Shown: positions 28,478-28,888 of the stretch, one piece after another
Layout of the letters: each line of letters begins with the position of its first letter
Position numbering within the stretch: position 1 is the first letter of the stretch
Assembly: GCF_044324875.1 (NCBI RefSeq)
Contig: NZ_CP172185.1
Reading direction: 5' to 3' (one strand)
Length of the DNA: 64,000 nucleotides
From: Escherichia coli
GTDB taxonomy: Bacteria; Pseudomonadota; Gammaproteobacteria; Enterobacterales; Enterobacteriaceae
Notes under the pieces: generated by a model
What the model was told of the DNA's origin: nothing
What the model saw: only the letters and a program-made list of their open reading frames with translations
The model's database searches: none
Program-made: the position numbers and the translations under genes

Positions 28478-28888
28478 TCAGAAGGGTATATCATCTCCGT
28501 AGGGGCCATCGCCTCCCGCTGGTGGCTTATTCCCCTGTGCGCCTGTGGTTTTGCGTGTTTTTCCGCCCGGTCGCACTGTCCGCGCACTGATTACGCTGTC
28601 TGCGATAACCTGCCAGCCCTGCCGCGTTTCCCCGTTCTGTCCGGTCCACTGGCTGACCTGCATGTTACCCGCCACGCTCAGGAGTTCACCCTTGCGGTGC
28701 TTTGCCAGTGCTTCGGCCTGTCTGCCAAACGCCAGCACAGATAACCACATCGTCGCCGTTCCGTCATCTGCCTGGCTGCACGGAAGGGGGACCGCCATAC
28801 TCGCCATCGCCATTTGTGTCCCCTTGCTGGTGGTCTTTAACTGCGGGTCAGCCACCAGCCGCCCGTAAGCCGCTATCTGTGCTGTCAT
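28478..28888 (-). CDS. ssb: Single-stranded DNA-binding protein-like (136 aa)
   Basis: OB-fold-like core and C-terminal acidic tail ending DDIPF, the canonical SSB protein-interaction tip; GAGGTGG SD. Confidence 0.6.
   Translation of the reverse strand: MTAQIAAYGRLVADPQLKTTSKGTQMAMASMAVPLPCSQADDGTATMWLSVLAFGRQAEALAKHRKGELLSVAGNMQVSQWTGQNGETRQGWQVIADSVISARTVRPGGKTRKTTGAQGNKPPAGGDGPYGDDIPF

What the first reader, a model, noticed from the sequence alone, without database searches (positions are those of the whole stretch)
28478..28888. Short SSB-like protein with canonical DDIPF tail in the island
A 136-aa OB-fold protein ends with the acidic ...DDIPF tip that host SSB uses to recruit many replication and repair proteins. 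An island-encoded copy could support satellite replication or compete for SSB-interacting host or phage proteins.
Basis: partly seen in the sequence, partly recalled or inferred. Interest (0 to 1): 0.45.

Follow-up and report, generated by a model that had tools for sequence, protein, structure and literature searches.

The report
Phage-satellite (PICI) single-stranded DNA-binding protein
This is a real but ordinary gene: a small single-stranded-DNA-binding protein that sits in the replication module of a 10.6-kb phage satellite (PICI) in E. coli, is already annotated as such in public databases, and has a close homologue in the model satellite EcCICFT073, although its role has not been tested experimentally in any paper I could find.

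Summary
ORF 28478-28888 (- strand) encodes 136 aa ending GPYGDDIPF. It matches Pfam SSB (E 9e-16) and passes the TIGR00621 cut-off. It models as an OB fold (residues 1-101) with a disordered tail, and its best structural matches are all bacterial SSBs.

RefSeq already calls the identical protein "single-stranded DNA-binding protein". The gene lies in a 10.6-kb Gram-negative PICI inserted between clpS and cspD, with a 29-nt att duplication and an empty site in other E. coli. The gene order is int-alpA-...-DUF4222-primase-iteron ori-orf85-ssb-perC-proQ/finO-terminator-terS.

The orf85-ssb pair recurs in 79 of 84 related loci, next to at least four replicase types and three packaging modules. EcCICFT073 carries it too (79% identical). 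About a third of complete E. coli genomes carry the family. No sequenced phage has a homologue above 60% identity.

The last nine residues are the most constrained part of the gene (dN/dS 0.05).

Most likely the protein coats satellite ssDNA after induction and recruits host partners through its tip. Published work shows pri-ori alone replicates, so it is accessory rather than essential.

Verdict: already known in kind and annotation, functionally untested, low interest.

The parts
28478..28888 (-). ssb: 136-aa SSB-family protein, stop codon included
   Evidence: ORF list; Pfam PF00436 E 9e-16; TIGR00621 above cut-off; identical to RefSeq WP_086624184.1, annotated 'single-stranded DNA-binding protein'
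28577..28888 (-). OB-fold domain, residues 1-104
   Evidence: AF2 model strands E2-11, 16-19, 25-35, 45-54, helix 56-62, strands 69-82, 88-101; Foldseek top hits are all SSBs; EcSSB W54, F60 and W88 align to W48, F54 and W81; pooled dN/dS 0.13
28508..28576 (-). Short basic disordered linker, residues 105-127 (VRPGGKTRKTTGAQGNKPPAGGD)
   Evidence: pLDDT below 50 for 105-136; the whole 32-residue tail (105-136) has 5 K/R against 3 D/E, whereas the EcSSB tail is 65 residues and acidic; the linker is the most variable part, dN/dS 0.31
28481..28507 (-). C-terminal tip GPYGDDIPF, residues 128-136
   Evidence: Sequence; family motif PYGDxIPF; dN/dS 0.047 at dS 0.93; IPF conserved in homologues
28885..29142 (-). 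orf85: 85-aa orphan protein whose stop overlaps the ssb start (ATGA)
   Evidence: phrog_1231, unknown function; no Pfam or NCBIfam match; directly upstream of ssb in 79 of 84 loci
29245..29420 (.). Putative origin of replication: iterons GGGGTAGAGGGCTTTT x3 and CC[C/T]TCTACCTGCCATCTACC x2
   Evidence: Repeat families D2, D5 and D9, sequence; position downstream of pri, as mapped for EcCICFT073 (PMC6092414)
29429..31177 (-). pri: P4-family primase/helicase-type replicase (582 aa)
   Evidence: phrog_864 DNA primase E 1e-168; TIGR01613 primase_Cterm 108.3 bits, just under its 108.7 cut-off; RefSeq 'DNA primase family protein'
31174..31473 (-). DUF4222 protein, upstream of pri
   Evidence: RefSeq annotation; present in 75 of 83 related loci
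28140..28460 (-). PerC-family regulator, next gene after ssb
   Evidence: RefSeq annotation; phrog_994 and phrog_10396
27476..28060 (-). ProQ/FinO-domain protein, last gene of the orf85-ssb-perC-proQ run
   Evidence: RefSeq annotation; NCBIfam ProQ and FinO hits E about 3e-21, below curated cut-offs
27432..27453 (-). Terminator-like hairpin (9-bp stem followed by a T run) after the proQ/finO gene
   Evidence: Consensus scan; the number of such sites in the region does not exceed chance, so this is a suggestion only
26604..27188 (-). terS: small terminase subunit of the satellite
   Evidence: phrog_57 E 7e-65; RefSeq annotation
33668..33877 (-). alpA: PICI master regulator homologue
   Evidence: Pfam Phage_AlpA PF05930 E 4.5e-16
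34297..35535 (-). int: tyrosine integrase
   Evidence: phrog_1 E 1e-67; RefSeq annotation
25122..25150 (.). attL, the clpS-side copy of the 29-nt att duplication
   Evidence: Repeat D3; empty-site alignment ends at 25150
35695..35723 (.). attR, the cspD-side copy
   Evidence: Repeat D3; empty-site alignment resumes at 35695

Best explanation
The ORF encodes a genuine member of the bacterial/phage SSB family. It has one OB-fold domain, a short disordered linker and a C-terminal P-Y-G-D-D-I-P-F tip. It belongs to the replication module of a Gram-negative phage-inducible chromosomal island (PICI).

Inferred mechanism: a helper phage induces the island and AlpA switches on the leftward operon. The island's primase/helicase opens the iteron origin. 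The island's own SSB, translated together with the small orf85 protein from the transcript that begins at or reads through the origin, coats the exposed single strands. Its C-terminal tip plugs into the host proteins that normally dock on host SSB, for example the chi subunit of Pol III, PriA and repair nucleases.

This would give the satellite extra SSB at a time when SOS damage and helper-phage replication are competing for host SSB. It is an accessory booster, not an essential replicon component.

Shown: sequence and fold membership, tip conservation, position in the module, and recurrence across PICIs. Inferred: ssDNA binding, oligomeric state, partner recruitment and the benefit to replication.
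For: - Family membership: Pfam SSB E 9e-16; TIGR00621 above cut-off; PHROG 44 E 1.6e-38; 25 solved SSBs matched by sequence; OB-fold model whose PDB neighbours are all SSBs.
- Three of the four aromatic residues that stack on ssDNA in E. coli SSB are conserved: W54/F60/W88 align to W48/F54/W81.
- Purifying selection over 61 distinct alleles: dN/dS 0.13 for the OB domain and 0.047 for the last 9 residues at dS 0.93.
- Context: the gene sits 250 nt downstream of an iteron array that follows the primase gene. This is the arrangement experimentally mapped as pri-ori in EcCICFT073 (PMC6092414).
- The same pri-ori-orf85-ssb order occurs in EcCICFT073 itself, whose SSB is 79% identical with the same tip. 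It also occurs in an O157:H7 capsid-forming PICI, in the ATCC 25922/Nissle island, and in 79 of 84 loci examined.
- The island is a bona fide PICI: int, AlpA, pri, ori, terS, 10.6 kb, att duplication and empty site.
- A published survey places SSB in the replication category of Gram-negative PICIs (PMC10111431).
- From my own knowledge, not checked here: in vitro replication of satellite P4 by its alpha primase-helicase was reported to need only host SSB, gyrase and Pol III holoenzyme. SSB is therefore one of the few host factors such a replicon depends on.
Against: - A pri-ori fragment of EcCICFT073 replicates a plasmid in DH5alpha without the island SSB. Only int, alpA and pri have been reported as needed for transfer (PMC6092414; PMC10111431). 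Host SSB is therefore sufficient.
- I found no deletion, binding or complementation data for any PICI SSB.
- EcSSB W40 and H55 (a tetramer-interface residue) are not conserved.
- The tip is less acidic than the host's, and many alleles have DNIPF or DGIPF. Partner range may therefore differ.
- The same SSB allele group is found with several unrelated replicase types. This argues against a specific SSB-primase partnership.
Confidence: 0.7

Rival explanations
1. Decoy or competitor. The protein's main role is to titrate proteins that dock on the SSB C-terminal tip, either host repair and recombination enzymes or helper-phage proteins. This would protect satellite DNA or interfere with the helper, rather than serve the satellite replication fork.
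For: The tip is the most strongly constrained part of the gene (dN/dS 0.047). The linker is unusually short and basic, and the whole protein has pI 9.5 against 5.4 for host SSB. PICIs are known to interfere with their helpers (PMC6739421).
Against: The OB domain and its DNA-stacking aromatics are also under purifying selection, which a pure tip decoy would not need. The gene sits in the replication module, not in the interference/packaging region. In EcCICFT073 the lambda-interference phenotype was fully explained by rppA (c1503). The SSB itself was apparently not among the genes cloned for that test: the plasmid list starts at c1499. There are no matches to defence-system models.
Confidence: 0.12
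2. Two-protein unit with orf85 that does something other than fork protection. For example, an SSB-plus-partner pair could promote strand annealing or recombination, remodel the origin, or form concatemers for packaging. The analogy is phage SSB-recombinase pairs.
For: orf85 and ssb overlap (ATGA) and co-occur in 79 of 84 loci regardless of replicase or packaging type. orf85 is an orphan with no family assignment. A distant relative of this SSB lies directly beside an ERF recombinase gene (L086).
Against: orf85 has no detectable similarity to any recombinase or loader. Its model is a low-confidence helical hairpin (pLDDT 63). There is no recombinase in the island. Five loci have the SSB without a detectable orf85 homologue.
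Confidence: 0.1
3. Functionless passenger: a gene carried along with the replication module with no current role.
For: It is not required for pri-ori replication, and no phenotype has been reported.
Against: Strong purifying selection across 61 distinct alleles, including the tip. The gene is retained in about 1780 of 5426 complete E. coli genomes and across PICI subtypes. Reading frames are intact with a conserved start and tip.
Confidence: 0.03

Closest known systems
SSB of the model PICI EcCICFT073 (E. coli CFT073 C_RS06995, WP_000126698.1)
   Same: 136 aa, 79% identical, identical PYGDDIPF tip, and the same position in pri-ori-hyp85-ssb-perC.
   Different: The packaging module downstream differs: a lambda-E-like capsid, decoration protein and rppA in EcCICFT073, against terS only here. 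The integration site also differs: next to roxA/pepT there, between clpS and cspD here. Neither protein has been studied experimentally.
E. coli chromosomal SSB (P0AGE0; PDB 1eqq, 1eyg)
   Same: OB fold; W54, F60 and W88 equivalents; a disordered tail ending in DDIPF.
   Different: Only 28% identity. 136 aa against 178 aa. The tail is 32 residues against 65 and is basic rather than Gly/Gln/Pro-rich and acidic. pI is 9.5 against 5.4. W40 and H55 are not conserved. The tip has two rather than three or four acidic residues. NCBIfam enterobacterial SSB models score far below their cut-offs.
SSBs of Firmicutes and their phages (B. subtilis SsbA/SsbB, S. aureus SsbA/SsbB; PHROG 44)
   Same: These are the best sequence and structure neighbours among characterised proteins: 27-36% identity, TM about 0.8. 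They are single-OB, short proteins.
   Different: Different hosts. SsbB-type proteins lack the C-terminal tip. No sequenced phage carries a homologue above 60% identity.
Conjugative-plasmid SSBs (F-plasmid Ssb type; NCBIfam PRK13732)
   Same: A mobile-element-encoded second SSB with the host-type tip.
   Different: Plasmid SSBs are close relatives of the host protein, and this one is not (19.7 bits against a cut-off of 265). From my own knowledge, they are expressed from the leading region on entry of single-stranded DNA. A PICI enters as packaged double-stranded DNA.

Membership tests
Bacterial/phage SSB family (Pfam PF00436, TIGR00621) | Sequence match to the SSB OB-fold profile above the family threshold | tested here: met
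   PF00436 E 9e-16, residues 5-99; TIGR00621 55.4 bits against a cut-off of 53.95, a narrow pass
Bacterial/phage SSB family (Pfam PF00436, TIGR00621) | Five-stranded OB barrel with a helix between strands 3 and 4 | tested here: met
   AF2 single-sequence model, pLDDT 79-89 over most of the domain; the top 50 Foldseek PDB hits are all SSBs
Bacterial/phage SSB family (Pfam PF00436, TIGR00621) | Aromatic residues that stack on ssDNA (EcSSB W40, W54, F60, W88) | tested here: inconclusive
   W54, F60 and W88 equivalents are present (W48, F54, W81). The W40 position aligns to Q39 in a region with a 3-5-residue deletion.
Bacterial/phage SSB family (Pfam PF00436, TIGR00621) | Disordered linker ending in an acidic/hydrophobic tip D-D-[IL]-P-F | tested here: met
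   Ends GDDIPF; residues 105-136 have pLDDT below 50; tip conserved and under the strongest constraint
Bacterial/phage SSB family (Pfam PF00436, TIGR00621) | Homotetramer (or dimer of two-OB chains) that binds ssDNA | not testable with these tools
   No multimer prediction or biochemistry was available. The EcSSB interface residue H55 is Leu here.
Gram-negative PICI (the element that carries the gene) | Integrase at one end with flanking att direct repeats and a precise empty site | tested here: met
   int at 34297-35535; 29-nt duplication at 25122-25150 and 35695-35723; uninterrupted clpS-yljB-cspD in strain XJ6.1, with the flanks found contiguous in the listed genomes
Gram-negative PICI (the element that carries the gene) | AlpA-type regulator co-oriented with the operon | tested here: met
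   Pfam Phage_AlpA E 4.5e-16 for the ORF at 33668-33877
Gram-negative PICI (the element that carries the gene) | Primase/replicase followed by an iteron origin | tested here: met
   phrog_864 primase E 1e-168; iterons at 29245-29420 directly after its stop codon; this matches the published layout
Gram-negative PICI (the element that carries the gene) | Size about 10-20 kb, with no lysis or tail genes and only packaging-hijack genes | tested here: met
   10.6 kb; the only virion-related gene is terS
Gram-negative PICI (the element that carries the gene) | Induction, replication and high-frequency transfer by a helper phage | not testable with these tools
   Requires experiment. Shown for the related EcCICFT073 (PMC6092414).

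The most novel reading that the evidence does not exclude
The orf85-SSB pair is a satellite-specific replisome adaptor. In this reading the SSB lineage is found in E. coli only in PICIs and not in any sequenced coliphage. Its tip variants (DDIPF, DNIPF, DGIPF) and basic linker are tuned to bind a selected subset of SSB partners, or the satellite's own helicase or orf85. This would divert host replication resources to the satellite and away from the helper phage during co-replication.
Probability: 0.1. Interest if true: 0.55.

Novelty: already known. Interest (0 to 1): 0.2.

Why it matters
Practically, it shows that the window carries an intact PICI with a complete replication module. About one in three complete E. 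coli genomes carries a second SSB that belongs to satellites, is distinct from the host protein, and could interact with the host SSB interactome.

The open question is modest: why does a 10-kb parasite that can replicate with host SSB keep its own SSB, and an orphan partner gene, under strong selection? A simple deletion and tip-mutant experiment in EcCICFT073 would answer it. It does not bear on a long-standing problem.

Tried and rejected
1. Recent capture of host or plasmid ssb: rejected. Identity to EcSSB is 28%, and the enterobacterial and plasmid SSB models score far below their cut-offs.
2. A prophage gene shared with coliphages: rejected. tblastn against 50,697 phage records gave no hit at 60% identity or above, and the best hits (about 36%) are Firmicutes phages.
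3. Defence-system component: no PADLOC match for the SSB, orf85, PerC or ProQ/FinO proteins.
4. Structured RNA in the island (C4/isrK-type immunity RNAs reported for some PICIs): no Rfam hit at gathering threshold in 24500-36500.
5. orf85 function: no Pfam or NCBIfam match. The AF2 model with 25 homologues was low confidence (pLDDT 63, helical), so I ran no fold search on it.
6. Genomic context of more distant relatives (40-50% identity): the three representatives looked up lie on contigs of 1-2 kb. That was uninformative, apart from one next to an ERF recombinase.
7. My first choice of island ends, the 25-nt repeat ATTAACTACACC... at 25218 and 35559, was wrong. The empty-site alignment puts the junctions at the 29-nt repeat further out.
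8. Published evidence on whether the SSB interferes with lambda: the EcCICFT073 expression clones listed start at c1499, so the SSB was apparently not tested.
9. The 1994 P4 in vitro replication paper could not be retrieved, so that point rests on memory.
10. The + strand ORFs overlapping the gene (28430-28744, 28545-28868) were treated as antisense artefacts of a G+C-rich gene and not examined further.

Full report
**Observation**

It spans 28478-28888 on the minus strand, starts with ATG, and encodes 136 residues ending GGDGPYGDDIPF. A GAGGTG Shine-Dalgarno sequence lies 7 nt upstream. The start codon overlaps the stop codon of the upstream 85-codon ORF as ATGA. The next gene downstream starts 17 nt after the stop.

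**Identity of the protein**

- Sequence matches: Pfam SSB (PF00436) over residues 5-99 with E 9e-16; NCBIfam TIGR00621 at 55.4 bits, narrowly above the curated cut-off of 53.95; PHROG 44 'single strand DNA binding protein' with E 1.6e-38.
- Solved structures: 25 distinct solved SSB sequences are hit by phmmer. The best are the Thermus/Deinococcus two-OB SSBs, Thermotoga, and S. aureus and B. subtilis SSBs. E. coli SSB is weaker at E 7e-6.
- Model: a single-sequence AlphaFold2 model (mean pLDDT 70, about 80-89 over most of the domain) gives the OB topology for residues 1-101 and a disordered tail for 105-136.
- Fold search: the top 50 Foldseek PDB matches are all bacterial SSBs (E about 2e-8, TM 0.7-0.8 normalised to the target).
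- Comparison with E. coli SSB: 28% identity (E 8e-11). The DNA-stacking residues W54, F60 and W88 align with W48, F54 and W81. W40 and the interface residue H55 are not conserved.
- Tail and charge: the tail is 32 residues with five K/R, against 65 acidic residues in the host protein. The whole protein has pI 9.5 against 5.4.

**It is already annotated**

The identical DNA occurs in three complete E. coli genomes. RefSeq calls the protein (WP_086624184.1) 'single-stranded DNA-binding protein'. A blastn search finds the gene family in 1780 of 5426 complete E. coli genomes. There are 2317 chromosomal places and 2 plasmid places, with up to six copies per genome. The large protein database returns about 790 homologues. 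Those that carry a name are called SSB, from E. coli, E. albertii, Salmonella and Citrobacter.

**The element that carries it**

- Position: the gene lies in a 10.6-kb insertion between clpS and yljB/cspD.
- Boundaries: alignment with a genome that lacks the insertion (strain XJ6.1) shows chromosomal homology up to 25150 and again from 35695. A 29-nt segment is duplicated at 25122-25150 and 35695-35723.
- Gene order on the minus strand:
  - tyrosine integrase
  - AlpA (Pfam Phage_AlpA, E 4.5e-16)
  - an Icd-like/repressor-domain protein
  - DUF4222
  - a P4-family-type primase
  - a 285-nt gap containing two sets of iterons
  - orf85, ssb, a PerC-family regulator and a ProQ/FinO-domain protein
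  - a terminator-like hairpin
  - a small terminase subunit and one more small gene
- Match to the published definition: this meets the description of a Gram-negative PICI, including the origin located downstream of pri with two iteron sets (PMC6092414; PMC10111431).

**Recurrence of the module**

- The same pri-ori-small ORF-ssb(-perC) order is annotated in four other islands:
  - an O157:H7 island with a full HK97-type capsid module, a capsid-forming PICI with a DUF927 replicase
  - the ATCC 25922/Nissle island, with a capsid, a decoration protein and terS
  - an island in strain 0H26 with a P4-family primase
  - the model PICI EcCICFT073, whose 136-aa SSB is 79% identical and ends in the same PYGDDIPF
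- A scan of IMG/VR found 379 relatives. Of the 80 loci kept, 73 are on contigs of 21 kb or less.
- By tblastn, an orf85 homologue ends 0-9 nt before the SSB start in almost all of the 79 of 84 loci that have one.
- The SSB is combined with at least four replicase classes and three kinds of packaging module.
- tblastn against 50,697 sequenced phage genomes found nothing at 60% identity or above. The best matches (about 30-36%) are SSBs of Firmicutes phages.
- Within the data examined, this SSB lineage therefore belongs to satellites rather than to coliphages, the host chromosome or plasmids.
- A search of 1.8 billion cluster representatives shows that it belongs to a wider clade of 125-150-residue SSBs. 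These share the N-terminus MTAQIAAYGRL, the motif SARTVRPGG[KR] after the OB domain, and an FDDxIPF-type tip.

**Selection**

I analysed 61 distinct alleles extracted from the loci.

| Region | Pooled pairwise dN/dS |
|---|---|
| OB domain | 0.13 |
| Linker | 0.31 |
| Last nine residues | 0.047 (dS 0.93) |

They are pooled pairwise numbers, not phylogenetically corrected. They still show that the tip is the most constrained part. The conserved motif is P-Y-G-D-x-I-P-F. DNIPF is the commonest variant in the IMG/VR set, and DDIPF is commonest among the 120 best database homologues.

**Mechanism**

The best-supported reading is that this is the satellite's own SSB. It would be made together with orf85 when the AlpA-controlled operon is switched on. 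It would coat ssDNA produced at the iteron origin by the island's primase/helicase. It would use its tip to dock onto the host proteins that recognise the SSB C-terminus.

This is inference from family membership and gene position. No tool here can show DNA binding, oligomeric state or partner binding.

Published experiments limit the claim. A pri-ori fragment of EcCICFT073 replicates on its own in DH5alpha. Only int, alpA and pri have been reported as required for transfer. The SSB is therefore at most an enhancer, plausibly useful when SOS damage and helper replication compete for host SSB.

I recall, but could not retrieve, that P4 alpha-driven replication in vitro needs host SSB, gyrase and Pol III holoenzyme only. 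That would make SSB one of the few host factors worth duplicating.

**Rival explanations**

- Tip decoy that titrates SSB partners: not excluded, because the SSB was apparently not among the EcCICFT073 genes tested for lambda interference. It is disfavoured because the OB domain is also constrained and the gene sits in the replication module.
- A separate function for an orf85-SSB pair: suggested by their tight coupling and by a distant relative next to an ERF recombinase. However, orf85 has no recognisable family and only a low-confidence helical model.
- A functionless passenger: contradicted by the selection data.

**Literature**

Searches found one bioinformatic paper that lists 'Primase, SSB and DUF5906' as the replication category of Gram-negative PICIs (PMC10111431). 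I found no experimental work on a PICI SSB.

**Verdict**

It is an ordinary component of a well-described kind of mobile element. The small open question is why it and its orphan partner are retained. Interest is low.

Noticed in passing
window 28885-29142 (- strand): An 85-aa orphan ORF (phrog_1231) overlaps the ssb start as ATGA and lies directly upstream of ssb in 79 of 84 related loci. It has no Pfam, NCBIfam or PADLOC match. It has only 167 homologues, those with a named source being from Escherichia, Shigella and Citrobacter. Its invariant core is LISAFMTTAAANFATLT, and the AF2 model is a low-confidence helical hairpin.
   Followed up: partly
window 27476-28156 (- strand): The satellite encodes a ProQ/FinO-domain protein (NCBIfam ProQ and FinO hits at about 3e-21, below curated cut-offs). 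It is the last gene before a terminator-like hairpin at 27432-27453. Homologues appear in only 6 of 83 related loci. An RNA chaperone on a PICI has no obvious role.
   Followed up: no
window 28140-28460 (- strand): A PerC-family regulator lies immediately after ssb. PerC-like genes are common in E. coli PICIs. One of them, in EcCIMP1, was reported to repress rather than activate the LEE island (PMC11773190).
   Followed up: partly
window 25218-25274 and 35559-35615: A 57-nt imperfect direct repeat lies just inside both ends of the island. It starts with the 25-nt ATTAACTACACCATT[A/G]ACTACACCG, which is itself a tandem of ATTxACTACACC. The repeat is distinct from the true 29-nt att duplication further out. 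These could be integrase arm-type sites.
   Followed up: no
window 25151-26060: About 900 bp at the clpS end of the island have no annotated gene. The stretch contains a 27-nt repeat, AAAAACCCC..ATTCGTGGTTTT.CTG, at 25393 and 26029. It might hold a pac site or a small RNA. There is no Rfam hit.
   Followed up: no
window 31670-33097 (- strand): A long ORF annotated as an Icd-like cell-division inhibitor combines a repressor-like N-terminal domain (phrog_6196) with an unknown C-terminal domain (phrog_2512). In other PICIs the Icd-like gene is only about 65 codons.
   Followed up: no
E. coli genomes NZ_CP033635.1, NZ_CP128970.1 and NZ_CP135671.1: The strains that carry this exact island contain 4-6 separate places matching the query around the SSB gene. 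This suggests several PICI-type elements, each with its own SSB, in one genome.
   Followed up: no
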